From: Candidatus Uhrbacteria bacterium
Lineage (GTDB): Bacteria > Patescibacteriota > Patescibacteriia > SG8-24
Assembly (NCBI GenBank): GCA_016929435.1
Contig: JAFGIV010000022.1
Coordinates: 26,918-90,917 of the forward strand
Reading direction: 5' to 3'
DNA: 64,000 bases
The notes below the pieces were generated by a model, which saw only the letters and a program-made list of their open reading frames with translations, ran no database searches and had not been told where the DNA came from. Positions 1 to 62,972 of the stretch are shown one piece after another. Within the stretch, counting starts at the first letter, position 1. Every line of letters begins with the position of its first letter. The translations under genes and the position numbers were made by a program.

Positions 1-859
1 GACCGTTGGCGTCGGAGGTGATGAACGGCTGGTTGATTTCCGTTTCCTGGGCGCTGGAAAGCTCGATCTTGGCCTTCTCCACCGCTTCCTTGATCCGCTG
101 GACGGCCAGGACATCGGCCCCCAGGTCGATCCCCTCGTCGTTCTTGAACTCCTGGATCACCCACTTTATCAGGCGCTGGTCAAAATCGTCGCCGCCCAGG
201 TGGGTATCGCCGTTCGTGGCCTTCACCTCCACCGTATCCTCGGCCACCTCCAGGACGGAAACGTCGAAAGTGCCGCCGCCCAGGTCATAGATGACGATCT
301 TTCCGCCCTGCTTCTTGTCGAAACCGTAGGCCAGGGCCGCGGCCGTCGGCTCGTTGATGACCCGCTTGACCTTCAGGCCGGCGATCTCCCCGGCGGTCTT
401 GGTGGCCTGGCGTTGGGCATCGTCGAAATAGGCCGGCACGGTGATGACCGCCTCCTCGACCTTCTCCCCCAACCGCTCCTCGGCATCGGCCTTCATCTTC
501 TGCAGAATCATGGCGGCGATCTCCTCCGGCGTGTATTCCTTTCCGGACATCTTCACCTTGATCCCCTCCCCGGCCTGGACCAGCTCGAACGGCAGGAGCT
601 GCCTCTCATGTTGCACCTCCGGGTCGTTCCAGCGCCGGCCGATCAGCCGCTTGATGGAATAGAGGGTGTTCTGGGGATTGACGACGGACTGGCGCTTGGC
701 GGTCTGGCCGACCAGCCGTTCTCCGGCCTTGGTGACGGCCACGACCGAAGGCGTGGTCCGGGCGCCCTCCTTGTTCTCCAAAACCTTCGGCTGCCCGCCC
801 TCGATGACGGCCATGCAGGAATTGGTCGTTCCCAAATCGATTCCGAGTATCTTTGGCAT
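1..859 (-). CDS. dnaK: molecular chaperone DnaK (Hsp70), N-terminal portion; 3' end lies beyond window start
   Basis: Minus-strand ATG (complement of 857-859) translates to [65 protein letters not shown]..., the canonical Hsp70 ATPase N-terminus. The frame stays open to position 1, and it is absent from the ORF track because there is no in-window stop. Confidence 0.9.
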
Positions 860-1055
860 ATTTCTATATGGTTAATTGGTTGCGATAACGGGGCTTGGCC
901 CCTAAATCCCCTGAAGGGGCTTATTTTGAATAAACATTGTGTTTTAATGACTGATTACGCTTGACTTGACATAATGTCGACAACTTGATATGGTGATGGA
1001 CATCACGACAGGGGGAATCCGAACGGCTAACTGCCTAAGGGAACCCTCTTTTGTT

Positions 1056-1367
1056 TTATTCATTCGACACCTTACCCCAACCGTAAAAAACAGAACTCAA
1101 CTCTTTTGTTGTCTTTTCGGGATAGGCGTCGAAAACAACGCTATCTAATCTGTTTGACAACTCTGTTAAGGCTTTTTCTACTTTTAAAAATCCATCCCCA
1201 ATTTTAACCGGTTTTCCGGGTTGTCCATTACGCTGATGAACATTGGGCAATCTCTCATCAAACGCATAACTTAGGGCCTCAAGCCTTATGTTGTGCATCT
1301 TATTCACCATAGCCCCCAATTCTTTCCATTCCTCAAAACTCATGTACGGTATTTTTCGGCGTTTCAT
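1056..1367 (-). CDS. hypothetical 103-aa protein, low-GC insertion between grpE and dnaK
   Basis: Intact ORF (MKRRKIPYMSFEEWKELGAMVNKMHNIRLEAL...) at ~40% GC versus ~62% in the flanking genes. No recognisable family. Confidence 0.45.
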   Translation of the reverse strand: MKRRKIPYMSFEEWKELGAMVNKMHNIRLEALSYAFDERLPNVHQRNGQPGKPVKIGDGFLKVEKALTELSNRLDSVVFDAYPEKTTKELSSVFYGWGKVSNE

Positions 1368-1400
1368 ATTATCTAATCGGATAAAAACATTGTAGTCATA

Positions 1401-1979
1401 TCATTCCCCCACCACCACCCGCGCGGGCCTGATTACCCTGTCGTAAACCCGGCAGCCGGCCTCCAGCACCTCCACCACCTGTCCGGACCCGGATCCCTCC
1501 ACCGCCCGGGTCATCACCGCCTCGTGGATGTTCGGGTCAAAGGCGACTCCGACCCCGTCGATCATCTCCACCCCGACCTTGGCCAGGACCGAATCCAGCT
1601 GCTGCCGGATGGCCCTGATGCCCCCGATCCATTGGGCGATATCCGGCGGGTGTTCGCTGCCCTCGGCCGGTTTCGGCTCATGGACGGACGACTTCCGAAG
1701 GGCCTCGATGACCGGCAGGAGTTGGGCAACCAGATCGGCACAGGCATACCGGGACAGGTCCGACCGCTGGCGCTCCGCCTCCCGTTTCAGGTTGGCGTAA
1801 TCGGCCATGGCCCTCTGCCACCCGGCCCTATACTCGGCGCACCTTTCGGGGGTGTCGTCGGGCGAAGCGACGGTCGCGCCCCCGTCGTCAGGCGGCACCC
1901 CTGCCAGGGCCTCGTTAAGGTCATCCACCGAAACGGCCTCGTCCTTTTTTTCGATGTCGTCTTTCCGGTCTTCGTCCAT
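1401..1979 (-). CDS. grpE: nucleotide exchange factor GrpE
   Basis: 192 aa with the GrpE C-terminal signature (...VAFDPNIHEAVMTRAVEGSGSGQVVEVLEAGCRVYDRVIRPARVVV) and the conserved hrcA-grpE-dnaK context. Confidence 0.85.
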   Translation of the reverse strand: MDEDRKDDIEKKDEAVSVDDLNEALAGVPPDDGGATVASPDDTPERCAEYRAGWQRAMADYANLKREAERQRSDLSRYACADLVAQLLPVIEALRKSSVHEPKPAEGSEHPPDIAQWIGGIRAIRQQLDSVLAKVGVEMIDGVGVAFDPNIHEAVMTRAVEGSGSGQVVEVLEAGCRVYDRVIRPARVVVGE

Positions 1980-2076
1980 AGAAAGTCTCTTAAATAATCT
2001 TTCGCTTGGCTCCCCGTTTATGGCAGTCTCCCGAATGGCAGGAATTGGGGATAAACCTGATCCGGCTATTTTGGGT

Positions 2077-2808
2077 CTATCCGGGGGCGATCAGCGTCTC
2101 CCGCAGGCACCGCATCAGCGAATAGTTCGACTGGTAATCCATCCGCTGCGGACCGAGCAGGCCGATGATCCCCTCCCCCGTCTCCGGCGTCCCATAGCGC
2201 AGGACGATGATGCTGGTGCCGCGGCCGAACGGGTTTTCCTCACCGATCAGGACATCGACATCCCGGGTCATCCGCCCCTCCAGCTCGTTCAGGACCTGAT
2301 CAAGCCGATCCAGGGCATGAGTCACCGCAAACAGCAGCTTCTCGTCCCGAAACTCCGGGTGGCGGAAAAGGTTCTCCATGCCGGTCAGGTGGAACCGCCC
2401 GTCGTTCAGGCTGACGAAAACCGTCCCCTTAGTCAGTCGGGCCAGACTTTGGGCGAAAGACAGGGAACGGTCGGCAATTCCGGCCCGAACCGCCTGCTGG
2501 ACCTCAACCAACTGGCGCTCCTGCTCCGCCGACGGCCTGGTTTTGGGTTCCACGAACTCGCTGACGAAATACCGGTAACCAATCTCGGTAGGGATCCGTC
2601 CGGCCGAAGTGTGCGGCTGTCTCAAAAGCCCCTGCTCCTCCAAGACGGCCATGTCGTTCCTGACCGTGGCCGGGGAAACTCCGAAATCGTATTTTTCGAC
2701 GATCGAACCCGAACCGACCGGTTCGGCGGTATCGACGAATTCCCGGACCACTGCCCAGAGAACCTTTTTCCTTCGATTTTCGGCGGAATCACCCATTGAC
2801 ATACGCAT
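2077..2808 (-). CDS. hrcA: heat-inducible transcription repressor HrcA
   Basis: The N-terminus ([73 protein letters not shown]) is the HrcA winged-helix region. A CIRCE element lies immediately upstream. Confidence 0.85.
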
Positions 2809-2814
2809 GAAAGA

Positions 2815-2841
2815 TTAGCACTCCTGACAGGAGACTGCTAA
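2815..2841 (-). promoter_or_regulatory. CIRCE operator (HrcA binding site)
   Basis: TTAGCACTC-ctgacagga-GACTGCTAA is the 9-N9-9 CIRCE inverted repeat (consensus TTAGCACTC-N9-GAGTGCTAA) with one mismatch, located 7 nt upstream of the hrcA start. Confidence 0.85.
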
Positions 2842-2851
2842 TCCTAAAGGG

Positions 2852-2880
2852 ATTATGCCTCCCTTTTTTAAGGCTGTCAA
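2852..2880 (-). promoter_or_regulatory. sigma-A type promoter of the hrcA operon
   Basis: On the minus strand, -35 TTGACA (complement of 2875-2880), a 17-nt spacer and -10 CATAAT (complement of 2852-2857), placing CIRCE just downstream of -10. Confidence 0.5.
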
Positions 2881-2904
2881 GAGGGGCAGAAAATCCCGCA
2901 TCCG

Positions 2905-2948
2905 ATAAAAAAACGGCTTTGGTTATGGGCCCAAAGCCGTCTTTATTC
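2905..2948 (-). terminator. rho-independent terminator, bidirectional in shape, serving the 2974..3417 gene
   Basis: Perfect 10-bp stem acggctttgg/ccaaagccgt with an 8-nt loop. Flanked by an A7 run that becomes a T7 run after the hairpin on the minus-strand transcript. Confidence 0.6.
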
Positions 2949-2973
2949 AAGAAGAAGCCCTTCCTTCTGCCTA

Positions 2974-3417
2974 CTATTCCTCTTCTTCGTCCAATGCCTC
3001 TGCGGACGGTTTCCCGGTGCAGATACCGTCCAGACTGAAATCACATACCGTGTTCACAGGACAATCACGGTCTGACCAACAAAATATCGCGCAGAAGTAT
3101 GGGGCGTTTCCGTAGGCGTCGGATATTACACATTGTTCCTCCCCGGGAACGATGTCGGGGCAGTTTTTTTCGTCGGCAAAACCGTATCGAAAGCACTGGG
3201 TAGAACAAAACCCGTACTCGTCAGAGACGAGTTTTACACATTTCTGGCCACTTTGGTCACCTTCCCCGTTATCACAGTCCCAGTCTGAATTGCAGGACTG
3301 CCCCCACAACGGGGCCTTGTCTTCGTCATCCTCGCCATCCCCCTGACATGCCATCGTCAACACCACCGACATGACCATTACTGCCATTGTCATCATAATC
3401 AACCCCATTTTTCTCAT
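2974..3417 (-). CDS. cysteine-rich secreted lipoprotein, member of a paralogous family
   Basis: Start adjusted to MRKMGLIMMTMAVMVMSVVLTMAC (signal peptide plus lipobox). RBS GGAGGG lies 7 nt upstream. About 16 Cys in 110 mature residues, homologous to the central module of the 4870..5796 product (...YGFCS..C...DCP...IC.G). Confidence 0.7.
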   Translation of the reverse strand: MRKMGLIMMTMAVMVMSVVLTMACQGDGEDDEDKAPLWGQSCNSDWDCDNGEGDQSGQKCVKLVSDEYGFCSTQCFRYGFADEKNCPDIVPGEEQCVISDAYGNAPYFCAIFCWSDRDCPVNTVCDFSLDGICTGKPSAEALDEEEE

Positions 3418-3483
3418 TACACACCCTCCTGTTGGGTTTTGGATGCCGCCGTTCGGCGGACACCATTTGTTAAAGACACCGAA

Positions 3484-3512
3484 ATGTTGACATAAATTTG
3501 GCCATCTGTCAA
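3484..3512 (-). promoter_or_regulatory. promoter of 2974..3417 gene (TTGACA-N17-CAACAT)
   Basis: -35 TTGACA (complement of 3507-3512), 17-nt spacer and a weak -10. The same architecture and downstream leader motif recur in the paralog promoters at 4760-4788 and 5862-5890. Confidence 0.4.
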
Positions 3513-3542
3513 GAGCCAAGAAGGTCAAGCGACAACCCGAAC

Positions 3543-3578
3543 AAAAAAGCGGGCGACCGACGGAAAGTCGGCGCCCGC
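3543..3578 (-). terminator. rho-independent terminator of the M8 protease gene
   Basis: Stem gcgggcgaccgac/gtcggcgcccgc with loop ggaaa, preceded on the + strand by A6, which is a T-run after the hairpin on the minus-strand transcript. Confidence 0.55.
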
Positions 3579-3616
3579 AAAAACAGTCAGAAAGAACAAT
3601 GCGAAGCGGTCAGCGG

Positions 3617-4696
3617 TCAAATTGTCCTGAACGGCAGGCGCCTAATGTCCTGCGTCAGGTCAAATACCTTGCCGACTCCCCGCCTTGAGAAGGCGGTTGA
3701 GAGGCTGAAAACGTCGGCAGCGCCGTAGTTAACGGCGTAACCGATATCCTCCATTGATCCTATGGTGACTATACTCACCGGCTCAAACGCCGATCCGGAA
3801 GTGAATCCGGTCATCGCCTCGACTCCAAAAACCGACTCCCTCCAGTGGCCGTCCTGGGTTCCGGCACCGTAATTTCCGTTCTCCACCGGAACCTTATGGC
3901 CATCATAATACGCCCCACCTACCTGCTCGAAAGCCGCCAACGCCTCGGTCCCAACGAAATGGGTATCAGCCCCCGGGTTGTAAAGGGAGGGGTTTTTGAG
4001 AAGACCCATGGCTTCCCAAAAAATACCGAATCCCAAGGAGTGTCCCATCTCGTGGAAAGCCACATTAGACAGGACGCCCTCCGCCAGCATCTGATCGGCA
4101 TCACTGTCATCTATGACGATGATGCTGACTGCCGGCAGAAGACTCGACCCTCGCCAAACGCAGGGGCCGGAATACCCCAAAATGCCTCCTGCCCCGTCAA
4201 TCGGGGCGATCTGGACAATTATTACGATATCGTCGATATCGTAGTCAATCCGGGGATGGGGTAACCCGTCACAGTATCCGGCCTCTATCGGGCTGGCGGA
4301 AAAACTGGCGGTCGGCAAATCTCCCACGATGATTCGCTCCCAACGAGCGGATGCCTCGTCGAAGGCGGATTCCGCGGACCTGCTGACTTGAGACACGAAA
4401 ATGAAATCAATATCGTATTCCCCACCTATGTCCGTATCCGCATCCGTATCGGTATCCGTATCGGCGTCCGCATCGGCATCAGCGTCAGCATCGGCATCCG
4501 AGCCGCCTAGGTCAACGCAGAACCCGGAAGCGCAGGTCAAATCCCCATCACAAGCCCCGCCTTCCGTGCACTGGCAGCCTTCGCTGCCGATCGCACAACC
4601 CCCTTCTCCGCTGCCCTCATCCTCATCACAGGCCGAAAGGCCAATCACCATCAGAAACATCGCCACGGACAGAATCGTTACGTTCAGGTTTTGCAT
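3617..4696 (-). CDS. leishmanolysin-like (peptidase M8 family) zinc metalloprotease lipoprotein with an N-terminal Cys-rich EGF-like module and a (DA)n/(DT)n linker
   Basis: Start at MQNLNVTILSVAMFLMVIGLSAC (lipobox) with RBS GGAGGGG upstream. HEMGHSLGF matches the M8 HExxHxxGF motif, with a distal His/Met-turn candidate (...DGHWRESVFGVEAMTG). N-terminal module C-x5-C-x-C-x5-C-x5-C-x4-C, then DADADADADADTDTDTDADTD. Confidence 0.6.
   Translation of the reverse strand: MQNLNVTILSVAMFLMVIGLSACDEDEGSGEGGCAIGSEGCQCTEGGACDGDLTCASGFCVDLGGSDADADADADADADTDTDTDADTDIGGEYDIDFIFVSQVSRSAESAFDEASARWERIIVGDLPTASFSASPIEAGYCDGLPHPRIDYDIDDIVIIVQIAPIDGAGGILGYSGPCVWRGSSLLPAVSIIVIDDSDADQMLAEGVLSNVAFHEMGHSLGFGIFWEAMGLLKNPSLYNPGADTHFVGTEALAAFEQVGGAYYDGHKVPVENGNYGAGTQDGHWRESVFGVEAMTGFTSGSAFEPVSIVTIGSMEDIGYAVNYGAADVFSLSTAFSRRGVGKVFDLTQDIRRLPFRTI
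4431..4500. repeat. hexanucleotide microsatellite (GTATCC/GCATCG-like units) encoding the (DA)n/(DT)n linker
   Basis: tccgtatccgcatccgtatcggtatccgtatcggcgtccgcatcggcatcagcgtcagcatcggcatccg. An imperfect 6-nt periodicity lies inside the M8 protease gene. Confidence 0.8.
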
Positions 4697-4759
4697 TTCA
4701 CCCCTCCTATGGGTATGTGGGCGTTCCATTATGGAAACGCCATTTTCAAAGACGCCGAC

Positions 4760-4788
4760 ACCTTAGCGCTGTTTGCGGTTTTTGTCAA
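4760..4788 (-). promoter_or_regulatory. promoter of M8 protease gene (TTGACA-N17-TAAGGT)
   Basis: Minus strand TTGACA aaaaccgcaaacagcgc TAAGGT, followed by the conserved leader GTCTTTGAAAATGGCG plus a hairpin. Confidence 0.5.
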
Positions 4789-4796
4789 GAGATACC

Positions 4797-4838
4797 GAGA
4801 AACAAAAGGCGGATACAGGAGAAAATCCAGTATCCGCC
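4797..4838 (-). terminator. rho-independent terminator of the 4870..5796 gene
   Basis: Perfect 9-bp stem ggcggatac/gtatccgcc with a 13-nt loop, followed on the minus strand by TTTTGTTTCT. Confidence 0.55.
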
Positions 4839-4869
4839 GTAACCAAGCCCGAACCAAAGAACGTGATAA

Positions 4870-5796
4870 TCAGCAGTCTTCCTCTATATCGACAAAGAAA
4901 TCTTCTGTAACCCCCGCGCAAAAGGGATAGTCGCAGAAGCCGTCCCCTACCCAATCACACGGATCGTCGGCACCGCAGGTGCAGGCATCATATACCAAAT
5001 CTTCACATGCGCCGTCGCATCCGCCATCTTCCCCAATATGAGATCCAGCACAAATGCTTATGCCTTCACTCATCCAATAGTGGCAATAACCGTCCGGACA
5101 ATCGGAATCGTCTTCGCATGATATGGAACAGAAGTCTGTACCACCATCGATCAACTCAACGAAGCAACCTTCCGTGCCGCTCCCCATATCTGTGCAATAG
5201 GGATCGAGATCGCCAGAATTGCAGCACTCCTTGGAACAAAACCCGTAACCATCAATCAAGATGCATGTCTGCCCAGCCGTACAATCATCGTTGGATAGAC
5301 AATCGCCTCCCCAATCCCCAGATACCGGTTCCGCATCGCATACTCCGCTACCACAATCGTCACTGTCATCGAACGGACTGGAGACGGCCTGAGAACAGTC
5401 CTCATCGCAGTACCCGTCACCGACCCAGTTGCAGGGGTCATCGGAACCGCAGGTGCAGGCATCATATACCAAATCTTCACAGGCGCCGTAGCACTCGTCA
5501 GCGTCACCGTCAGCATCGGTGTCGGTGTCCGTATCGGTGTCAGTGTCCGTATCGGTGTCGGTATCCGTATCGGTGTCGGTGTCCGTATCGGTGTCAGACC
5601 CCGGATTTCCCGGATCAACGCAACGACCGGAAGCGCACACTAAGCCCGGATCGCATCCACCGCCCGGGGTGCACTCGCACCCCTTATTGCCGACCTGGCA
5701 ATCATCATCCATTTCATCCCCCCGGCAACCGGGTGCAAAAAGGGCCATTATTGCCGCTACCGCCACGAACAACATCCCAATCGATAGTTTCTTCAT
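4870..5796 (-). CDS. cysteine-rich secreted lipoprotein with (DT)14 linker and internally duplicated Cys modules
   Basis: Start at MKKLSIGMLFVAVAAIMALFAPGC (lipobox) with RBS AGGAGGGG. The N-terminal module (CQVGNKGCECTPGGGCDPGLVCASGRCVD) is paralogous to the M8 protein N-terminus. Then (DT)14 DADGDADE; the module YGACEDLVYDACTCGSDDPCNWVGDGYCD is repeated near the C-terminus, and the central module is paralogous to the 2974..3417 product. Confidence 0.7.
   Translation of the reverse strand: MKKLSIGMLFVAVAAIMALFAPGCRGDEMDDDCQVGNKGCECTPGGGCDPGLVCASGRCVDPGNPGSDTDTDTDTDTDTDTDTDTDTDTDTDTDADGDADECYGACEDLVYDACTCGSDDPCNWVGDGYCDEDCSQAVSSPFDDSDDCGSGVCDAEPVSGDWGGDCLSNDDCTAGQTCILIDGYGFCSKECCNSGDLDPYCTDMGSGTEGCFVELIDGGTDFCSISCEDDSDCPDGYCHYWMSEGISICAGSHIGEDGGCDGACEDLVYDACTCGADDPCDWVGDGFCDYPFCAGVTEDFFVDIEEDC
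5497..5598. repeat. hexanucleotide microsatellite (GTGTCG/GTATCC-like units) encoding (DT)n
   Basis: About 17 tandem 6-nt units (gtcggtgtccgtatcggtgtcagtgtccgtatcggtgtcggtatccgtatcggtgtcggtgtccgtatcggtgtc). Confidence 0.85.
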
Positions 5797-5861
5797 CCTT
5801 ACCCCTCCTATTGGGTATATGGGCCTCCCGTTCGGGAGCGCCATTTGTTAAAGACACCGAA

Positions 5862-5890: not shown

Positions 5891-5912
5891 GGGCCCATCC
5901 TGACACGGCCGA

Positions 5913-5951
5913 ACCAAAACAAAAACGGCTTTGAATTATGGCCAAAACCGT
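5913..5951 (-). terminator. rho-independent terminator of the small lipoprotein gene, paralogous to the terminator at 2905..2948
   Basis: Hairpin acggctttg-aattatggc-caaaaccgt, followed on the minus strand by TTTTTGTTTTGG. Near-identical in sequence to the 2905..2948 hairpin (gacggctttgg...ccaaagccgt). Confidence 0.5.
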
Positions 5952-5987
5952 CTTTCTTGAGAAGAAATCCCTCCCTCTCTCCCCTCT

Positions 5988-6161
5988 TTATCTTTCCTCT
6001 TTTTTTTCTTCCTCACCCGCATCAACTCCACCCATCGGAATGCTGACCAAGACCCGACCAGCATCCGACTTGTGTGCCGATGAGGATGAGGAAGTGGCGC
6101 AACCGCCAATTACCATAATCATCGTCAGTATCAACACCAACAAAACCCGAATTTCTCTCAT
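5988..6161 (-). CDS. small lipoprotein (57 aa), not in the ORF track because under 60 aa
   Basis: Minus-strand ATG (complement of 6159-6161) translates to MREIRVLLVLILTMIMVIGGCATSSSSSAHKSDAGRVLVSIPMGGVDAGEEEKKEER with stop TAA. RBS AAGGAG, its own promoter and its own terminator. Confidence 0.5.
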   Translation of the reverse strand: MREIRVLLVLILTMIMVIGGCATSSSSSAHKSDAGRVLVSIPMGGVDAGEEEKKEER

Positions 6162-6198
6162 CTATCTTCTCCTTTGTTTACCTGTTTTGATTGGACAA

Positions 6199-6227
6199 AC
6201 TATAGCGTTTTTAGGCGGTTTTGTCAA
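6199..6227 (-). promoter_or_regulatory. promoter of small lipoprotein gene (TTGACA-N17-TATAGT)
   Basis: Minus strand TTGACA aaaccgcctaaaaacgc TATAGT. This is the fourth promoter of the array with the same -35 and spacing. Confidence 0.55.
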
Positions 6228-6298
6228 GCCTGACAGGCAAAGACCGCCGGCTCTGGCCGACGGCCTTACCTGGCCAAATTCAACCGAAAGAAGTTGGG

Positions 6299-9356: not shown

Positions 9357-9476
9357 GATTTACGTGCAGTAATTATACACTGATTCCCGATACCGTAAAT
9401 GCCCGGTTTGGGTGGGGCAAATGCCGTTGGCGGAAAAACCGTTCCGACAGGAGACACCCGCCGAACGGATAGGGTC

Positions 9477-9505
9477 TGGACAACCGAAAAAGGACATGGT
9501 ATTGT
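9477..9505 (+). promoter_or_regulatory. candidate promoter of tRNA-Glu (TGGACA-N17-TATTGT)
   Basis: Hexamers with 17-nt spacing ending ~15 nt before the mature tRNA 5' end. Confidence 0.35.
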
Positions 9506-9520
9506 CCTTTCGGATATTGG

Positions 9521-9598
9521 GGTCCCATCGTCTAGCCCGGTCCAGGACGTCTCCCTCTCACGGAGAAAACAGGGGTTCGAATCCCCTTGGGACTACCA
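9521..9598 (+). tRNA. tRNA-Glu (anticodon CUC), CCA encoded
   Basis: Hand-folded cloverleaf: acceptor GGTCCCA/TGGGACT; anticodon stem TCTCC/GGAGA with loop CTCTCAC; T arm AGGGG-TTCGAAT-CCCCT. Closely resembles bacterial tRNA-Glu (GTCCCCTTCGTCTAG...CAGGGGTTCGAATCCCCT...). Confidence 0.85.
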
Positions 9599-9602
9599 GA
9601 AG

Positions 9603-9632
9603 CACTCACCGAATGGTGGGTGTTTTTATTTT
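9603..9632 (+). terminator. rho-independent terminator after tRNA-Glu
   Basis: Stem cactcacc/ggtgggtg (one G-U) with loop gaat, then TTTTTATTTT. Confidence 0.6.
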
Positions 9633-9694
9633 GTTCGCCTTTAAAAAACCGTGATATAGTTTTTGCGTAATCTAAGGCCTGTTTTCTTGGCTAT

Positions 9695-10081
9695 ATGTCT
9701 ATATCCATAAAAAATATTTTTACCGCCCATAACAATCGAAGCGCTTCTTTTCGGAAAAAAGCTCTTGGTTATTTTCTTGTCTTTCTGGGTGCGTTTCCAG
9801 CGGTTGCATTTGCTTTAGCCTTCGTATTTTGTTTGTTCTTTCCGAATAATCACCTGATGAGGACATACATCATGGTCGATTTTGCTCTTGTCGAAGTCGT
9901 TGGCCCTATGGCATACGTGTTGCTATTGCTGTTGGCTTTGGCTGTGTTTTCTGCGCCGTTTTTCCTGTTGGTCTATATTGGCTTTCTTCTTGTTGGTTCG
10001 AAGAAAAAGAAACCGTCGGGCCAAGCCGTGCTGTTCGCGGTGTTTGCCTATTTTATCTGCTTTTCCGTTTTTTTTTTCTGA
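9695..10081 (+). CDS. small polytopic membrane protein (3-4 TM), AT-rich islet
   Basis: Hydrophobic segments; stop TGA overlaps the next ATG (TGATG), so the two are translationally coupled. Confidence 0.5.
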   Translation: MSISIKNIFTAHNNRSASFRKKALGYFLVFLGAFPAVAFALAFVFCLFFPNNHLMRTYIMVDFALVEVVGPMAYVLLLLLALAVFSAPFFLLVYIGFLLVGSKKKKPSGQAVLFAVFAYFICFSVFFF

Positions 10082-10823
10082 TGACTGAGAATCTGAATAC
10101 GAAATTTGACAGGAAAGTCTCTGGAATGAAAAGTCTTAATACTGGAATCGGGCATCCTATCTTGCCCGAATTTGATGTCATTAACATTTCCAAGTATGTG
10201 AAGTACGATGACATTGTCATTTATCAGGGAGATAGCTACGGGTACAAGTATACGGGTGATGCCTATAGCCAGATCGCCTTGGACCTTGACGTTGAAGGTC
10301 GTACTCTGTTTGTCAGGCGCTCTGAGATGGAGACCTATGTCGTACTCTGTTTGTCAGGCGCTCTGAGATGGAGACCTATTACGATGTCGAAATAGGTCAT
10401 GTGAAGAACAGGTATCCTTTATACCCGGCCGGCACCAAGAAACTGACCATCGAAATCACCGTTCCTGACCTTGACCGCATCATTGTTGAGGGTGGACATG
10501 TCAGCCTAGAGGGTTTGGAAGTGAATGACCTGCGGATTGACCTAAATAAGCGGTTCGTTGAGCTGAAAGGGGATTTGGTGGTGAGAGACGGTTTTGTCCT
10601 GAATGCTAAAGGGGGAGTGGTAGATTTGGAGGGTTCCGCAAAAAACCTAGAAATAAATTCCGGGGACTGTTGGATTGATATGGAGAATTTTACGGCTGAG
10701 ACCGCCTCAATAAACGCCGTTAACACCAGTCGTTTGAACGTTTACGTAACGGAAAACATGGAGGTCATTTCCGGGGTTAATTCTGGGATAGTCAAACATT
10801 TCGATTTCCATCAGGAAGAGTAA
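10081..10823 (+). pseudogene. putative-adhesin/beta-helix-like (DUF2807/DUF4097-like) gene split into two ORFs (10081..10395 and 10368..10823) by a frameshifting 41-bp tandem duplication
   Basis: Removing one 41-bp copy joins ...GRTLFVRRSEMETY to YDVEIGHVKNRYPLY... in frame, giving a single 233-aa protein. Confidence 0.6.
10298..10379 (+). repeat. perfect tandem duplication, 2 x 41 bp (gtcgtactctgtttgtcaggcgctctgagatggagacctat)
   Basis: Copy 10298-10338 is identical to copy 10339-10379. 41 is not a multiple of 3, so the duplication causes a frameshift. Confidence 0.95.
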
Positions 10824-10841
10824 CCGTGTTTGAAAAGACGA

Positions 10842-10953
10842 CGTTCCAGCACGAAAAGCACTACCACCCGCATCCAGCACGGGGAGGCTGTCTCCAATAG
10901 CTGGAGACGGCCTTTAAAGCCTCGAAACAAAAACACCCGAAAGGGTGTTTTTG
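10842..10953 (+). repeat. intergenic palindromic repeat element copy A (~110 bp: hairpin GGCTGTCTCCAatagcTGGAGACGGCC plus terminator CACCCgaaaGGGTG-T5)
   Basis: ~88% identical to copy B (13580..13691); the core palindrome also occurs at 12390..12428. Sits 19 nt after a stop codon. Confidence 0.85.
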
Positions 10954-11118
10954 TGTGCTGGGTTATTTTAATTGCGAAGGGGGGGTGCTTTATGGTATTG
11001 TGCAAATAACATATTTCAATCTAGAAAATAATTTTCGCTTCGTTAGTGGCGGTGCTTTATATCGTTATTCGAAGCTATGTCGAGGGAATTATTAATAATA
11101 TACTTAACCATTGCAAAT

Positions 11119-11724
11119 ATGAAAAATAATATTTTTATTAGAGTGATGTTGGCCACAATGGGCCTCTTTTCTCTATCTTTGTTCTTTTTGGTCTCCAATG
11201 TATACGCATATGTAGCAAGTGGATACACCCGCCCTTCAGGAAACGTAAGTTTTTACTTGCATGGCGCACTGGTGAATGTGGGGTGGCAGGGAGCGATAGA
11301 CAACGCTCGTAGCGAATGGAACGGGGCAGGATCTTCCTTTACGTTCTCTCAAAGCGGTACCGCTACAAGAAGCCCGAGCTTGGTTCAAAGCAGCACGACT
11401 GATGGGTATAACGACATCGGAGCACTTTCGTTGGACCTCAGTTATGTTGGATTTACATCTTCTGTTGCTAGTGGAACATCGATCATTGAAACGGACACAG
11501 CTTATAACTTGGAGAAGTCCTTTGATGTAAATCCGAATATTTATCAGTATGATGTTGAGAGTGTTGCTGTACATGAATTGGGCCACTGGTTACATTTGGA
11601 CGAAACACAGTCGTGGCGATGCTTTGCGTCTCCGCCAAGTATGTGCGGATCAGTTTCTATGGGGAGCACATATATGCGTTCTATAGAATCCGACGACATT
11701 AACGGCATTCAATATATCTATTAA
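11119..11724 (+). CDS. secreted metzincin-like zinc metalloprotease (snapalysin M7 / matrixin M10-like)
   Basis: Signal peptide MKNNIFIRVMLATMGLFSLSLFFLVSNVYA. Zinc motif VAVHELGHWLHLDE, a Cys pair, Met-turn candidate STYM and C-terminal DDINGIQYIY (matrixin DDIxGIQxLY signature). Confidence 0.6.
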   Translation: MKNNIFIRVMLATMGLFSLSLFFLVSNVYAYVASGYTRPSGNVSFYLHGALVNVGWQGAIDNARSEWNGAGSSFTFSQSGTATRSPSLVQSSTTDGYNDIGALSLDLSYVGFTSSVASGTSIIETDTAYNLEKSFDVNPNIYQYDVESVAVHELGHWLHLDETQSWRCFASPPSMCGSVSMGSTYMRSIESDDINGIQYIY

Positions 11725-11725
11725 T

Positions 11726-12337
11726 ATGAAGAAAACAACATTAATTGTAGCGGGATTGGCGGTTATAGTGTCTCTTACGACGCTGATGTACGGACTTGAT
11801 GGCAAAGACCAGGGAGGCAGCGCAACCCCACAGGGCGACGGAACGAGATTGTTGGTCAATGCCTTGCGTACAGAGCCTGATTTTAGGGTTGATACCCTTG
11901 ATTCCAGTATGATAGTTCAGGGGGAGGTGATTGCGGTCGATGAACTGTCTGACCAACCCTTAAGCCACAATACGCGTATAACCATTTCTGTCGACCAGTT
12001 GATTAAGGGGGATGATGTCAGCGAAACGATAGAGGTTTATGCGTTAGGTGGCGGCGGTGTAGAGGTTGTAGGAGATAACGAGAAAATAGGTCTTGTTGCA
12101 GGTGACGTCGGCATTTTCTTCCTTGGTTGGATGCCTGTGTCTGAAGGGTTCTACACATTTTTTGGCGGTTCAAGGGGCGTTTATGTTGAAAAGGACGCAC
12201 ATATTCGTAATTGGGGTGGAAAATCAATTAAAACTGATAGGTTTGTGCGCGAGATTGAGAAAGTGCTAGCTGACCCTGATGATAGAGAACATCAAAAGAC
12301 TTTGGGAGAGATGATCCGTGATAAGGAGTCTGAATAG
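11726..12337 (+). CDS. secreted partner protein P1 (signal peptide; paralogous to 12898..13527)
   Basis: MKKTTLIVAGLAVIVSLTTLMYG signal peptide; starts 1 nt after the protease stop. Shares the core ...V.G.VI......V.V...IKGD....TV...GG with the P2 paralog. Confidence 0.5.
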   Translation: MKKTTLIVAGLAVIVSLTTLMYGLDGKDQGGSATPQGDGTRLLVNALRTEPDFRVDTLDSSMIVQGEVIAVDELSDQPLSHNTRITISVDQLIKGDDVSETIEVYALGGGGVEVVGDNEKIGLVAGDVGIFFLGWMPVSEGFYTFFGGSRGVYVEKDAHIRNWGGKSIKTDRFVREIEKVLADPDDREHQKTLGEMIRDKESE

Positions 12338-12389
12338 AAGGTGTAAGAGGATACTACTTTTTCTTGGGACTACCACTTACATAAAGCGC

Positions 12390-12428
12390 GAGGAGGCCGT
12401 CTCCAATAGCTGGAGACGGCCGTTAGGG
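12390..12428 (+). repeat. repeat element copy C (core palindrome only, perfect 11-bp stem GGCCGTCTCCA atagc TGGAGACGGCC)
   Basis: Identical core to copy A. Lies immediately upstream of, and truncating, the second protease ORF; an in-frame TAG sits inside the repeat. Confidence 0.8.
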
Positions 12429-12430
12429 TC

Positions 12431-12895
12431 TTGTTGGTTACGCCTTTAGGTTCTGCGCTTGCTTGTTCCCAGGATTCATTGTTTTGGACTAGCGCCGTTG
12501 ATAGCGGGGAGATACGTTGGGGCGGTTCCACAAAGTATTCGTGGGAGTGGCAAGATGCGAGGGGTGCATGGAACCAGTTGAGTCCCGTTGATATTCTTCC
12601 TGATACAATATACACATATGAGGATTTAAAAATTTCGGACGTTGACAGCCATTACTTGGGATATTGGGGGGCATACATTCCTTCGTTGGGGACTGATGAT
12701 TTGGAGCTTAATGAATATTTTATGGATGGGGGCTCATACGGAAACAGGGCACATATCGTCTCTCATGAACTTGGCCGTGCTTTAGGTCTCGACCATGTTG
12801 ATGGTTGCGATCATGTGATGGATGATTATCAATATTGCACTTCAGTCACACCGTCATCAAACGATGAATGTAGCTACGATGAATTATGGAACTAG
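12431..12895 (+). CDS. degenerate paralog of the metzincin-like protease (5'-truncated, no signal peptide, zinc-motif H->R); possible pseudogene
   Basis: The ORF begins at TTG with no upstream ATG, and an in-frame stop lies in the repeat just upstream. Motif HIVSHELGRALGLDHVDGCDH is snapalysin-like HExGHxLGLxDH, but the second His is Arg (CGT where His would be CAT). Confidence 0.5.
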   Translation: MLVTPLGSALACSQDSLFWTSAVDSGEIRWGGSTKYSWEWQDARGAWNQLSPVDILPDTIYTYEDLKISDVDSHYLGYWGAYIPSLGTDDLELNEYFMDGGSYGNRAHIVSHELGRALGLDHVDGCDHVMDDYQYCTSVTPSSNDECSYDELWN

Positions 12896-12897
12896 GG

Positions 12898-13527
12898 ATG
12901 AAAGGCAAAATTATAGGCGGGGGGGTACTGCTTCTTGGCGTGCTGGGTATTGGTCTTCACGCTAATGTTTTGAGGGTGCCGGGTATTGTTAACCAGGTTG
13001 GCACTGTTGCAATCGCTAACTTTTCGGATGATGCCGAACTCGTAGGAGCGGCACATAACGTTTTTGTTGGTAAGGTAATAAAGAAACAGGACAGCTTTGT
13101 TGAGGGCAGGCTTGCCTTCACTCCTTATGAGGTTGTCGTCCTTTCCAATATCAAAGGTGATTTAGAAGGAACGGTAACGGTCCTTCAAAATGGGGGGTAT
13201 AAAGATGGGTTCTTGCAAATCTTGCATGATTCCGAATCGCCTGATGGGAGACTTCCATTTCCTGAAGTCAATCAATTATATCTGTTTTCAAGCAGACATA
13301 ATGTTGAGGCCGATGTCCACTACCTTCTTCCTACGATTCATGCTATGGAAAAGGTGAGTTCGAATACAGAATTTGGTGCCCAGGCTGACATTGCCGCCAT
13401 AACCAAGAGTGTTCGCATAGAAGAGCTGAGGGAAGCATATAAAAATGAGGTAGTTCCTTTGGCGGATAGGGAGCACGGTAGTGATTTCAATAGCTACAAT
13501 AAAACTGTACCGCAAAAGATTGAGTAG
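12898..13527 (+). CDS. secreted partner protein P2 (paralog of P1)
   Basis: Start chosen at MKGKIIGGGVLLLGVLGIGLHA (signal peptide), 3 nt after the upstream stop. Similar to P1. Confidence 0.5.
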   Translation: MKGKIIGGGVLLLGVLGIGLHANVLRVPGIVNQVGTVAIANFSDDAELVGAAHNVFVGKVIKKQDSFVEGRLAFTPYEVVVLSNIKGDLEGTVTVLQNGGYKDGFLQILHDSESPDGRLPFPEVNQLYLFSSRHNVEADVHYLLPTIHAMEKVSSNTEFGAQADIAAITKSVRIEELREAYKNEVVPLADREHGSDFNSYNKTVPQKIE

Positions 13528-13579
13528 GTTACGGGTTTGTGACAGAACTGATGTCGCACTGCCGTCTTGAAAAATCACC

Positions 13580-13691
13580 GCTCCAGCACGAAGGACACTG
13601 CCGCCCACATCCAGCACGGGGAGGTTGTCTCCACTATCTGTAAACGGCCGTTAAAGCCTCGAAACAAAAACACCCGAAAGGGTGTTTTTTG
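13580..13691 (+). repeat. repeat element copy B (~110 bp), at the islet boundary
   Basis: gctccagcacgaaggacactgccgcccacatccagcacggggaggttgtctcc...aaacacccgaaagggtgtttttt aligns to copy A; its palindrome is partly degraded. Confidence 0.85.
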
Positions 13692-26100: not shown

Positions 26101-26343
26101 ATGAGAAAAAAAATTAGAAGACACAAGCGGAAGGCAAGAAATTGCCTCCCCCCGCCACTCCCTCCATATGACATCTATGGGGAATCAGAAAACTGCCTCC
26201 CGCCGCCCCCTCCATGCTGCTCATCTTCGTCAGACGATTCGTTATCGGACGGAAGGTTGTTCCCGAACTACGAGGTCGATGACCTCGACGATGTGAACGG
26301 GGAAAGAGGGAGAAAATCCCTTAACTTCGAGGAAAAAGAATGA
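26101..26343 (+). CDS. small basic/proline-rich protein (80 aa) in an AT-rich cassette
   Basis: RBS AAGGA 7 nt upstream of the ATG. MRKKIRRHKRKARNCLPPPLPPYDIYGESENCLPPPPPCCSSSSDD... with an acidic tail. The Pro codons derive from a GC-rich 25-28 bp direct repeat. Confidence 0.35.
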   Translation: MRKKIRRHKRKARNCLPPPLPPYDIYGESENCLPPPPPCCSSSSDDSLSDGRLFPNYEVDDLDDVNGERGRKSLNFEEKE

Positions 26344-26540
26344 ATCCGTTAATTAAAAAAATAATAGAGGACTTGTTGTCAAATGAGCCGATTTCGGCTC
26401 CCGTCACACCTGAAATGAAGGTGATGGTTCTGAAAGAGACCATCGCCTTCGCCGAAAAAATAATGGCGTTGGCGGAAGAAAGGATCAAAAAAATCCAAAA
26501 CGCCAACGCCAATATGGAAGCCCAATTATTGGGCAAATAA
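26340..26540 (+). CDS. small helical protein (66 aa), ATGA-overlapped with the upstream ORF
   Basis: MNPLIKKIIEDLLSNEPISAPVTPEMKVMVLKETIAFAEKIMALAEERIKKIQNANANMEAQLLGK, with translational coupling to the upstream ORF. Confidence 0.4.
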   Translation: MNPLIKKIIEDLLSNEPISAPVTPEMKVMVLKETIAFAEKIMALAEERIKKIQNANANMEAQLLGK

Positions 26541-26583
26541 ACCCGATTACTGGGCAAAAAACAACAACAAAGACGATTTCTCA

Positions 26584-26613
26584 AACGCCACTCCGGCTGG
26601 GGGTGGCGTTTAT
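26584..26613 (+). terminator. candidate terminator after the small two-gene cassette
   Basis: aacgccac...gtggcgtt 8-bp stem followed by TTTAT (weak U-tract). Confidence 0.3.
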
Positions 26614-26675
26614 GATTGCGGCGAGACCCCTAAATCCCCCTTCGGGGGACTTATGATGGTATGGGGGCGAAAACC

Positions 26676-61340: not shown

Positions 61341-61886
61341 ATGGCCAAACAAACAGCCCACCTGGGCCGGCGCTGGTACGCCATCCACACCGCCTCCGGA
61401 TATGAGGAGAACGTCTCCCATAACATGGTCCAACGCATCGAGTCCATGGATATGCATGACAAGATATTCAATGTCATGATCCCGAAGGAGAAGAAGATCA
61501 AGATAAAGAACGGCAAGCGCCGGACCGTGGAGGAGAAGATATTCCCGGGATATGTCCTGGTGGAGATGGTCGTTACCGACGATTCCTGGTATGTGGTCCG
61601 GAACACCCCGAACGTCACCGGTTTCATCGGCACCGGCACCATCCCCACCCCGATCGCCGACGAGGAGATCAAGGCCCTGCAGAAGCGGATGGGCGTGGAG
61701 GAGCCGGAATTCAAGATTGACGTTGAGGTCAACGCTCCGGTCATGATAACCGACGGGCCGTTCAAGAACTTCGAGGGTAAGGTCTCGGAAATCGACGAGT
61801 CCCGCGGGAAGATCAAGGTCCTGGTCTCCATGTTCGGACGGGAAACCCCGGTGGAGCTGGATTTCCTCCAAGTTAAGAAAATCTAG
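61341..61886 (+). CDS. nusG: transcription termination/antitermination protein NusG
   Basis: NGN domain (WYAIHTASGYEENV) and a C-terminal KOW motif. Confidence 0.85.
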   Translation: MAKQTAHLGRRWYAIHTASGYEENVSHNMVQRIESMDMHDKIFNVMIPKEKKIKIKNGKRRTVEEKIFPGYVLVEMVVTDDSWYVVRNTPNVTGFIGTGTIPTPIADEEIKALQKRMGVEEPEFKIDVEVNAPVMITDGPFKNFEGKVSEIDESRGKIKVLVSMFGRETPVELDFLQVKKI

Positions 61887-61926
61887 GGTCCGACACTTCG
61901 TTTTTTATCCATTTTGAGCCAAAGAG

Positions 61927-61955
61927 AAAAGGCCCGCCGAAATGCGGGCCTTTTA
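61927..61955. terminator. bidirectional rho-independent terminator (nusG 3' end and NUDIX gene 3' end)
   Basis: ggcccgc-cgaaat-gcgggcc hairpin with a T-run on + and an A-run upstream. Confidence 0.6.
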
Positions 61956-62029
61956 GATATGCGGCTTAAAGGTCGAAAGAAAAGAAATGACCGCCGCGGC
62001 AAGGGCCGGGGCGGTCAATCAAGAAATTG

Positions 62030-62782
62030 CTATTTTTTTACTGTCACCTTCTCAATCGAGATATAACCTCGATTGGTGATTTTTTCTCGATAGCTCGAGT
62101 CAACCATCAAACGCCTTACTTTCTCGAAGAAAGCAAAAGGAATGATGCCCGCCTGTCCGGAATGGACAATCCCATTCATGATGTTCTCCTCGACCTCTTC
62201 CTCCGACAGGGAAAATACCCGCAACCCACCGTCATTGTCAACCCGGTCGGGAAGATACAGTCCGGAGAGAAAAATCACGCCGATCCGGTTTCTGATGCTG
62301 ATATCCGACCCGAATGGATACACGGGTCGGGTACAGAGATATAAGGTCGACTTCTGGCTCTCCTCCACCCCAGTTTCTTCGACCAATTCCCTTAAGAACC
62401 CCGACCTTACCCCCTCTCCGGGTTCGATCGCCCCGCCGGGGAATTCCAAGGAACTGTCTTTCCCGAAAATTCCGAGGTCAACATCCTTCCCCCCGATCCT
62501 GGCCACCATGGGCCGATCGGAATAGCGGCCTTCCGGCGGTCGCTGCTCGACGATCATCACCAGGCGTCCGTCCGGCAGGACGGGAACGATTGCCGTCCCC
62601 TCTTCTGTCCATTTTCCCTCTGAGTCAACAAGCTCAAGATAACAGAAATATCTGTTGGGTCCATTCTTAAAGATCGCCTGTTGGCGGCCTCCTGACGAAC
62701 AGACGAGTATGATTCGGTGCCTATATGGTCCCGAAATCAACTCAACTCTCCTTCCCTCACTCCAAAAAATTTTCTCAAGCAT
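62030..62782 (-). CDS. NUDIX hydrolase
   Basis: Nudix box GGAIEPGEGVRSGFLRELVEETGV. Inserted antisense between nusG and rplK. Confidence 0.7.
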   Translation of the reverse strand: MLEKIFWSEGRRVELISGPYRHRIILVCSSGGRQQAIFKNGPNRYFCYLELVDSEGKWTEEGTAIVPVLPDGRLVMIVEQRPPEGRYSDRPMVARIGGKDVDLGIFGKDSSLEFPGGAIEPGEGVRSGFLRELVEETGVEESQKSTLYLCTRPVYPFGSDISIRNRIGVIFLSGLYLPDRVDNDGGLRVFSLSEEEVEENIMNGIVHSGQAGIIPFAFFEKVRRLMVDSSYREKITNRGYISIEKVTVKK

Positions 62783-62972
62783 GCCTACTACCTCCGTTTT
62801 GAGAAAGAACCGTTTCAGGCACCTTAGGAGGAAAACGGCAAAAAGTCAAGATAAACCTGGGGACTTGCGTTTTTTGCCCATACATTGTAATGTTCCTTCC
62901 GAACAGGCGGTTCGGTTTTCCAAACCGGACAAAGCTTCTCGCCTTTCCCCCTAAACAAGAAATTCCCTAAAT

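What the first reader, a model, noticed from the sequence alone, without database searches (positions are those of the whole stretch)
1056..1367. 40% GC orphan ORF inserted inside the otherwise conserved hrcA-grpE-dnaK heat-shock operon
The 103-aa ORF lies in the 33-bp and ~195-bp gaps between grpE and dnaK on the same strand. It is compositionally foreign (~40% vs ~62% GC), so it is a recent insertion that would be co-transcribed from the CIRCE-controlled promoter and hence heat-inducible. No family could be assigned. The gap to dnaK (862-1055) contains GC-rich hairpins (ccccttcagggg, ggggccaagcccc) and a + strand TTGACA-N17-TATGGT motif around the TGTCGACA palindrome. Small cargo genes riding a stress operon are often toxin/antitoxin-like or phage-derived.
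Basis: seen in the sequence. Interest (0 to 1): 0.55.

Follow-up and report, generated by a model that had tools for sequence, protein, structure and literature searches.

The report
Foreign orphan gene splitting grpE-dnaK
About 500 bases of foreign, low-GC DNA carrying one small gene of a very rare, uncharacterised protein family sit between the heat-shock genes grpE and dnaK of an uncultured Uhrbacteria-like bacterium; it is a real horizontal acquisition, but nothing shows it to be a toxin-antitoxin or phage module.

Summary
ORF 1056-1367 (- strand, 103 aa) has 40% GC and GC3 of 0.41. Its neighbours hrcA, grpE and dnaK have 61-66% GC and GC3 of 0.76-0.87. The closest available relatives (DnaK 88-92%, HrcA 82%, GrpE 58-59% identical) have only 32-36 nt between grpE and dnaK. 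The window has 541 nt, so about 500 nt were inserted. A second assembly of the same run is 100% identical across both junctions.

The ORF is a real gene. An exhaustive search of 1.8 billion proteins plus a profile search found a tiny family of about 12 sequences of roughly 85 aa. A profile built without the ORF hits it alone in the window (41 bits). No Pfam, NCBIfam, PHROG or PADLOC match exists. The AF2 model is a generic helical hairpin plus a short helix.

The homologues lie in variable arrays of small genes next to PIN, MazE, ApeA-HEPN, PLD and AriA-like defence genes. In the window the gene is solo, with no supported partner, attC, terminal repeats or integrase.

The operon promoter and CIRCE operator are intact. 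No - strand promoter or U-tailed terminator lies in the insert, so heat-inducible read-through is likely but inferred. Function is unknown. Interest is modest.

The parts
1056..1367 (-). Protein-coding gene, 103 aa (NCBI: hypothetical protein JW899_04240, MBN1585547.1). It belongs to a very rare, uncharacterised family of ~85-aa helical proteins. Homologues begin at its Met9, so the true start may be ATG 1343 (95 aa).
   Evidence: ORF. Self-hit and name. Homologue P0005 by exhaustive phmmer, E 2e-4 in 1.84 billion proteins. Profile search finds P0034-36. Alignment. Reciprocal HMM built without the ORF hits it alone in the window, 41 bits. AF2 model with helices 3-29, 48-73 and 79-86, pLDDT 69.
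886..1400 (.). Low-GC block (~40-43% GC, about 500 nt) that is absent from relatives: the inserted DNA. The exact ends are uncertain within a few nt. It starts at or just after the grpE stop codon.
   Evidence: Composition. Spacer is 32-36 nt in L005/L006/L007 and 99-125 nt in L009/L010/L001. Independent Logan assembly L008 is 100% identical over window 480-2196.
862..885 (-). Remnant of the ancestral grpE-dnaK spacer, now the dnaK leader (CAACCAATTAACCATATAGAAAT before the ATG). It is alignable with relatives (CAACCAAACATTAATAAGTTTATAGAAT).
   Evidence: Direct reading; alignment.
886..925 (-). Two short GC hairpins (CCCC-TTCA-GGGG, then ATTTA, then GGGGC-CAA-GCCCC) at the dnaK-proximal end of the insert, with no U-tract. 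A near-identical motif (CCCTAAATCCCC + hairpin + CTTAT on the + strand) recurs at 26625-26656, downstream of dnaE. Role unexplained.
   Evidence: Folds. Motif searches. No terminator call by the T-tail criterion.
966..994 (+). Sigma-70-like promoter match (TTGACA-17-TATGGT, 10/12, TG-extended) pointing antisense into the ORF and grpE. This is a consensus match only.
   Evidence: 3 matches in 700-3000 against 1.2 expected.
944..1063 (-). 39-codon ORF overlapping the stop of the 103-aa gene (ATGAATAA). It was considered as a partner gene and has no support.
   Evidence: No Pfam hit. Its length is well within chance, since the mean longest ORF in shuffles is 56-66 codons.
1401..1979 (-). grpE
   Evidence: Pfam GrpE, E 2e-33.
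1..859 (-). dnaK, N-terminal 286 codons (runs off the window).
   Evidence: Pfam HSP70, E 4e-129.
2077..2808 (-). hrcA
   Evidence: Pfam HrcA, E 2e-17.
2815..2841 (.). CIRCE operator TTAGCACTC-N9-GACTGCTAA, 1 mismatch to consensus.
   Evidence: 0 expected by chance.
2852..2880 (-). Operon promoter TTGACA-17-CATAAT (11/12).

Best explanation
About 500 nt of foreign, low-GC DNA carrying a single intact gene was inserted at or just after the grpE stop codon. It split what was a ~33-nt grpE-dnaK spacer in a Candidatus Uhrbacteria-labelled MAG. The gene encodes a small (95-103 aa), basic, hydrophilic, all-helical protein: a long helical hairpin plus a short C-terminal helix with the conserved motif LDxxVFxxYPxKxTxELxxVFYG. 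It belongs to a very rare, undescribed family. The other members are single, shuffled modules in hypervariable arrays of small accessory genes beside TA and anti-phage defence genes, on mid-GC environmental contigs (45-50% GC; the genes themselves 41-47%). In this genome the gene has no partner and no recognisable mobility signature. Inferred, not shown: dnaK has no promoter of its own, so the HrcA/CIRCE-controlled transcript must read through the insert. The gene would then be a heat-inducible passenger of the operon. The protein is too small, and too poor in conserved catalytic-type residues, to be an enzyme, so it most likely acts by binding another macromolecule. Its target is unknown.
For: Insertion: the grpE-dnaK spacer is 541 nt here, against 32-36 nt in the closest relatives and 99-125 nt in more distant ones, none of which has an ORF there. 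Foreign origin: GC 0.40 and GC3 0.41 against GC3 0.76-0.87 in neighbours; the homologous genes have 41-47% GC. Not an assembly artefact: the Logan contig is 100% identical across both junctions. Real gene: the homologues are collinear at both N- and C-terminal motifs, and the reciprocal HMM scores 41 bits with a unique hit in the window. Helical fold. Context of homologues: MazE, PIN, PDC-S58/ApeA-HEPN (1e-70), AriA/NsnB-like ATPase (5e-30) and PLD; a conserved ~290-nt module sits between different neighbours. Operon control: promoter 11/12 and CIRCE with 1 mismatch; no - strand promoter match or U-tailed terminator between 860 and 1400.
Against: Nothing here bears on expression, either of RNA or of protein. 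The Logan gene calls did not include this ORF, so gene finders disagree. Neither candidate start codon has a Shine-Dalgarno sequence, although dnaK, grpE and hrcA lack one too. Two GC hairpins lie between the ORF and dnaK and could attenuate read-through. A + strand promoter-like site would give antisense transcription. The nearest comparator genomes are distant (GrpE 58-59%), so neither the time nor the mechanism of insertion is known. The family is too small and too shallow for a confident structure (pLDDT 69) or any functional inference.
Confidence: 0.7

Rival explanations
1. The ORF is a dead passenger. The foreign fragment landed in the spacer, is tolerated because transcription reads through it, and the ORF is not translated or has no function in this host. 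In that case the block is effectively a long spacer.
For: No SD at either start. The Logan gene caller did not call the ORF. ORF length is only borderline versus chance. Relative to homologues it has a 13-residue loop insertion and an 8-residue N-terminal extension. It is solo, unlike the arrayed homologues.
Against: The frame is intact over 103 codons, and all 22 family-invariant positions are retained at ~33% identity. The native neighbours also lack an SD. A low-GC region is rich in potential stop codons, so an unselected frame would decay quickly.
Confidence: 0.2
2. It is half of, or a complete, toxin-antitoxin or abortive-infection module riding the stress operon. The partner would be the overlapping 39-codon ORF 944-1063 or an antisense RNA from the + strand promoter at 966-994.
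For: Homologues sit among MazE, PIN and defence genes. The overlap with a downstream small ORF has the form ATGAATAA. An antisense sigma-70-like site scores 10/12.
Against: There is no PADLOC, Pfam or NCBIfam hit for the protein, its homologues or the 39-aa ORF. The protein is hydrophilic (GRAVY -0.65) and 103 aa long, unlike type I toxins. The homologues have no constant partner; their neighbours differ between loci. The 39-codon ORF is of chance length.
Confidence: 0.07
3. The functional payload is RNA or regulatory, not protein. On this view the hairpins at 886-925 and/or an antisense transcript from 966-994 modulate dnaK expression (processing or stability element, attenuator), and the ORF is incidental.
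For: The 197-nt 3' flank folds better than shuffles (RNA z -2.9). The hairpin motif recurs downstream of dnaE at 26625-26656. The CCCC/GGGG/GGGG/CCCC arrangement allows alternative pairings.
Against: No Rfam hit. The hairpins end 27 nt before the dnaK ATG and cover no ribosome-binding site. Only two copies of the motif exist in 64 kb. The ORF has genuine protein homologues.
Confidence: 0.08
4. Assembly or binning artefact: a low-GC fragment from another organism was joined in chimerically.
For: Sharp GC step; it is a MAG.
Against: An independent assembler's contig from run SRR13394437 is 100% identical over 1,717 nt spanning both junctions. The flanks are the two halves of one operon in the correct order and orientation.
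Confidence: 0.03

Closest known systems
Class I heat-shock operon hrcA-grpE-dnaK(-dnaJ) under HrcA/CIRCE control, as in Bacillus subtilis and many Gram-positives (established knowledge)
   Same: Gene order hrcA-grpE-dnaK on one strand; a sigma-70-type promoter followed by a CIRCE inverted repeat (1 mismatch) just upstream of hrcA.
   Different: An extra foreign gene and ~500 nt lie between grpE and dnaK. The relatives examined have 32-125 nt and no ORF there.
Accessory 'orphan' genes of defence islands and hypervariable gene arrays
   Same: The homologues are small modular genes with their own SD. They lie between different neighbours that include PDC-S58/ApeA-HEPN, an AriA/NsnB-like ATPase, a PLD nuclease, PIN and MazE. 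The family is unannotated and rare.
   Different: In the window the gene is alone inside a housekeeping stress operon, not in an island. No defence function is known or testable for the family itself; it has no PADLOC hit.
Integron gene cassettes (promoterless small ORF + attC, expressed from an upstream promoter)
   Same: A small ORF without its own promoter, inserted downstream of a resident promoter. The homologue arrays have recurrent 60-90 nt intergenic repeats and junctions inside the 3' end of the ORF.
   Different: No attC-like long imperfect hairpin was found, either in the window flank or in the array repeats (z -0.2 to -1.1 for the repeats; only two 4-5 bp hairpins in the window). 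There is no RYYYAAC...GTTRRRY pair and no IntI. The array repeats sit in 5' leaders.

Membership tests
HrcA/CIRCE heat-shock operon (context) | hrcA, grpE and dnaK co-oriented and adjacent | tested here: met
   Pfam hits and coordinates.
HrcA/CIRCE heat-shock operon (context) | CIRCE inverted repeat TTAGCACTC-N9-GAGTGCTAA at the promoter | tested here: met
   2815-2841, 1 mismatch, 0 expected by chance; promoter at 2880-2852 scoring 11/12.
HrcA/CIRCE heat-shock operon (context) | Heat-inducible co-transcription of all genes, including the inserted ORF | not testable with these tools
   Only the absence of an internal promoter or U-tailed terminator could be checked.
Horizontally acquired insertion | Absent from the orthologous site in relatives | tested here: met
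   L005, L006, L007, L001 and L009/L010 have spacers of 32-125 nt with no homologue of the ORF.
Horizontally acquired insertion | Composition and codon usage deviate from the host | tested here: met
   GC3 0.41 against 0.76-0.87.
Type II toxin-antitoxin module | Two adjacent co-oriented small genes, at least one with a recognised toxin or antitoxin domain | tested here: not met
   No Pfam, NCBIfam or PADLOC domain in the ORF or in the 39-aa overlapping ORF. No conserved partner among the homologue loci.
Type I toxin-antitoxin module | Small hydrophobic (membrane) toxin peptide | tested here: not met
   103 aa, GRAVY -0.65, pI 9.2, no hydrophobic segment.
Type I toxin-antitoxin module | Overlapping antisense RNA | tested here: inconclusive
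   A + strand promoter-like match at 966-994 points into the ORF. It is a consensus match only.
Integron gene cassette | attC site: imperfect hairpin with RYYYAAC / GTTRRRY cores at the 3' end of the cassette | tested here: not met
   ssDNA folds of window 880-965 show only two short hairpins. The array repeats of the homologues fold no better than shuffles. No core-site pair was seen by eye.
Integron gene cassette | Integron integrase (IntI) nearby | tested here: not met
   There is no room for one in the operon. The 450-aa ORF next to a homologue in L015 has no Pfam, PADLOC or PDB match.
IS / MITE | Terminal inverted repeats and a target-site duplication | tested here: not met
   Only 9-nt direct repeats and 78-80% complementary 15-18-nt inverted repeats, none at the insert's ends. 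By my own estimate about one exact 9-mer repeat is expected by chance in a 571-nt region of this composition. No other copy in the window.
Phage-derived gene | Homologues in phage or viral sequence collections or families | tested here: not met
   PHROGs best E 0.024 over 24 residues. No hit in IMG/VR. INPHARED tblastn best E 4. BFVD fold search best E 3.

The most novel reading that the evidence does not exclude
A small helical protein from the defence-island gene pool has been captured into the heat-shock operon and is kept there because it works with the chaperone system. It could be a heat-induced modulator or client-adaptor of DnaK/GrpE, or a stress-triggered anti-phage or anti-plasmid factor whose dose is set by HrcA. 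That would be a new accessory component of the Hsp70 operon in a CPR bacterium and a first functional handle on an undescribed protein family.
Probability: 0.05. Interest if true: 0.6.

Novelty: new member of a known kind. Interest (0 to 1): 0.3.

Why it matters
If the gene is expressed as inferred, it is a clean natural case of a foreign gene gaining regulated, stress-inducible expression simply by landing inside an essential operon that the host cannot silence. It also flags an undescribed, extremely rare small-protein family (about 12 sequences among about 15 billion) that otherwise travels with TA and anti-phage genes. In practical terms it is a well-delimited HGT event in a CPR-type genome, with an intact empty-site comparison. 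It does not open or resolve a major question.

Tried and rejected
- **Curated family searches** (Pfam, NCBIfam, PHROGs, PADLOC) on the ORF and on its family alignment gave nothing above noise.
- **PDB sequence profile search** gave nothing; best E 0.09.
- **Phage and plasmid tblastn** gave only chance hits.
- **IMG/VR and JGI metagenome scans.** With the single protein they returned nothing. With the alignment the IMG/VR scan again returned nothing, and the metagenome scan returned only 2 short contigs, one already known.
- **Integron-cassette hypothesis.** It was prompted by recurrent intergenic repeats in the homologue arrays. It was rejected because there is no attC-like hairpin, no core sites and no IntI.
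- **IS/MITE hypothesis** was rejected.
- **Rfam** on 1-4000 and on the homologue loci gave nothing.
- **Partner-gene search.** The 39-aa overlapping ORF and the + strand 52-aa ORF have no support.
- **The 450-aa ORF beside a homologue in L015** looked by eye like a tyrosine recombinase. It has no Pfam, PADLOC, PDB, phage or plasmid match, so the idea was dropped.
- **MAFFT alignment across the junction** misplaces the GC-shifted grpE 3' end. The boundaries therefore rest on gene coordinates and on the alignable last ~25 nt before dnaK.
- **Literature search** for genes between grpE and dnaK, and for this MAG, found nothing relevant.

Full report
**1. Observation**

The window begins inside dnaK on the - strand. 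The ATG is at 859, and Pfam HSP70 scores E 4e-129. Upstream on the same strand lie grpE (1401-1979; Pfam GrpE, E 2e-33) and hrcA (2077-2808; Pfam HrcA, E 2e-17).

Between grpE and dnaK lies the 103-codon ORF 1056-1367 (-). It is 33 nt from grpE and 196 nt from dnaK.

Composition contrasts sharply:

| Feature | GC | GC3 |
|---|---|---|
| ORF 1056-1367 | 0.404 | 0.41 |
| 3' flank 862-1055 | 0.433 | n/a |
| grpE | 0.663 | 0.82 |
| hrcA | 0.608 | 0.76 |
| dnaK | 0.625 | 0.87 |

The two GC hairpins and the + strand TTGACA-17-TATGGT site at 966-994 are present as described.

ORF length alone is only borderline. The chance of an ORF of at least 103 codons in shuffles of the 541-nt block is 0.017-0.06.

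**2. It is an insertion, not an artefact**

The annotated protein is 'hypothetical protein JW899_04240 [Candidatus Uhrbacteria bacterium]' on a 98.9-kb contig.

GrpE homologues were used to fetch comparator loci. The grpE-dnaK spacers are as follows:

| Locus | Identity to window | grpE-dnaK spacer |
|---|---|---|
| L005/L006 | DnaK 92%, HrcA 82%, GrpE 59% | 32 nt |
| L007 | DnaK 88%, HrcA 82%, GrpE 58% | 36 nt |
| L009/L010 | more distant | 99 nt |
| L001 | more distant | 125 nt |

- None of these loci has an ORF in the spacer, and a family profile finds no homologue of the ORF anywhere in them.
- One Magasanikbacteria locus (L002) has hsp20 after grpE instead.
- In the window the spacer is 541 nt.
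- The last ~25 nt before the dnaK ATG (window 862-885) are still alignable with the relatives' spacer. The extra ~500 nt therefore lie between the grpE stop and about position 885.
- A Logan assembly of run SRR13394437 (L008) is 100% identical to window 480-2196, across both junctions. This argues against a chimeric join.
- The closest relatives have about 48.5% GC overall. This lineage has therefore shifted to ~60% GC while the insert has not followed. That fits acquisition after most of the shift, but this is an inference and the date cannot be fixed.

**3. The ORF is a real gene of a very rare family**

- The word-indexed search of 5.8 billion clusters found only the protein itself.
- The exhaustive phmmer search of 1.84 billion representatives gave one credible relative, P0005 (86 aa, E 2e-4). 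It also gave a few repeat-protein hits, which I discount.
- The ORF and P0005 align collinearly at both ends: MSFEEWKELGAM with MNFEKWVEIGEM, and KALTELSNRLDSVVFDAYPEKTTKELSSVFYG with KAMTKMRDKLDNLVFEQYPDKPTQELCNVFYG.
- A profile search added P0034, P0035 and P0036, and cluster look-up added seven more near-identical members. That makes about 12 sequences in all.
- A profile built only from the other members hits the ORF, and nothing else, among 1,192 six-frame segments of the window (41 bits).
- The homologues start at the ORF's Met9, so ATG 1343 (95 aa) may be the true start.
- Relative to the homologues the ORF has a 13-residue loop insertion.
- There is no detectable DNA similarity between the window and the homologue loci. 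The similarity is at protein level only.

**4. What the protein looks like**

- There is no match in Pfam, NCBIfam, PHROGs or PADLOC, and none to PDB sequences.
- The AlphaFold2 model from the 5-sequence alignment has mean pLDDT 69. It shows helix 3-29, a disordered loop, helix 48-73 and a short helix 79-86.
- The protein is basic (pI 9.2) and hydrophilic (GRAVY -0.65), with no membrane segment.
- I infer a small binding or adaptor-type protein rather than an enzyme. This is inference only.

**5. Where the homologues live**

All homologues are on short environmental contigs of 45-50% GC, and the genes themselves have 41-47% GC.

- A ~290-nt module is 84-99% identical between contigs. It runs from 58 nt upstream, including a GGGAGG SD, to codon ~78 (...VFYG).
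- The module sits between different neighbours, and the protein C-termini diverge just after VFYG at (GC)n runs.
- The arrays carry a recurrent 60-90-nt leader repeat between genes.
- Neighbours include a MazE-type antitoxin (L014), a PIN protein, a PDC-S58/ApeA-HEPN protein (PADLOC 1e-70), an AriA/NsnB-like ATPase (5e-30) and a PLD nuclease (L015).

So the family belongs to the shuffled accessory gene pool of TA and defence islands, with no constant partner.

I tested whether these are integron cassettes. The repeats fold no better than shuffles, no attC core pair is present, and no IntI was found. That hypothesis is rejected.

**6. Anatomy in the window and likely working**

- The operon promoter (TTGACA-17-CATAAT, 2880-2852) and a CIRCE element (2815-2841, 1 mismatch, 0 expected by chance) are intact.
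- Inside 860-1400 the scan finds no - strand promoter and no U-tailed terminator.
- In relatives dnaK follows grpE by ~33 nt and so depends on the upstream promoter. The simplest model is therefore that the HrcA-controlled transcript reads through the insert. The foreign gene would then be a heat-inducible passenger. This step is inferred, not shown.
- No mobility signature was found. There are no terminal inverted repeats, only chance-level 9-nt direct repeats, no second copy in the window and no integrase.
- No partner gene has support. The overlapping 39-codon ORF 944-1063 is of chance length and has no family hit.

Two items remain unexplained:

- The hairpin motif at 886-925 has a near-twin at 26625-26656, just downstream of dnaE.
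- The 10/12 antisense promoter match at 966-994.

**7. Comparison, novelty and verdict**

The context is a canonical class I (HrcA/CIRCE) heat-shock operon. The novelty is the foreign gene between grpE and dnaK. That gene is a new, divergent and solo member of an undescribed small-protein family from defence and TA gene arrays.

The TA, phage, integron and IS readings each fail at least one defining feature tested here. I therefore file it as an ordinary kind of event, the horizontal acquisition of an orphan accessory gene, in an unusual place.

- Confidence that it is a genuine insertion carrying a genuine gene: about 0.85.
- Confidence that it is co-transcribed with the operon: about 0.6.
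- Function: unknown.
- Interest: 0.3.

Noticed in passing
window 9452-13597 (tRNA-Glu at 9521-9598): A 4-kb low-GC island (~45% against ~60%) starts right at a tRNA-Glu(CTC) gene. It carries + strand ORFs that include two matrixin-like M10 peptidase ORFs (11077-11724, 12431-12895) and a DUF2807 protein (10368-10823). This looks like a tRNA-associated genomic island.
   Followed up: partly
window 26340-26656: A second small low-GC ORF (66 aa, + strand, 26340-26540, no Pfam hit) is followed by a strong hairpin-T terminator (26588-26612). After that comes a motif CCCTAAATCCCC + hairpin + CTTAT (26625-26656) that is nearly identical to window 897-925 in the grpE-dnaK insert. On the - strand both copies read GC-hairpin + ATTTAGGGG, and the second copy lies just downstream of the dnaE stop at 26676.
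   Followed up: partly
L011-L015 (e.g. L011 1-94, 450-543, 1665-1722; L015 1513-1588, 6878-6955, 8335-8417, 8746-8825): The environmental contigs holding the homologues are arrays of small ORFs. The ORFs are separated by a recurrent ~60-90-nt leader repeat (consensus TAAGCGGTGATGTGCGCCAGCGCCACATATGCGTAACCCTTAAGCGGAGATGAACCCCATT), and module junctions fall at (GC)n runs. The repeat is not attC-like by folding. The host lineage and the recombination mechanism are unknown.
   Followed up: partly
L015 4867-10242: A defence-island-like run: a PDC-S58/ApeA-HEPN protein (PADLOC 1e-70), a PLD-family nuclease with an Ada Zn-binding domain, an AriA/NsnB-like AAA ATPase and a PIN protein. A 450-aa ORF (2766-4118) next to the family gene has no match in any library.
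   Followed up: partly
window 2974-5844: Three - strand ORFs encode secreted-looking proteins. They are Cys-rich and carry long (Asp-Thr)n or (Asp-Ala)n repeats, and the 370-aa one at 3617-4729 has an HEMGH metalloprotease-like motif. They lie directly upstream of the heat-shock operon at intermediate GC (~50-56%).
   Followed up: no
L002 6592-7038: A Magasanikbacteria relative has hrcA-grpE followed by an hsp20 gene instead of dnaK, so the operon is not invariant across CPR lineages.
   Followed up: yes
window 5903-6243, 61838-62200, 62589-63034: Further short low-GC patches (~46-47%) of unknown content.
   Followed up: no
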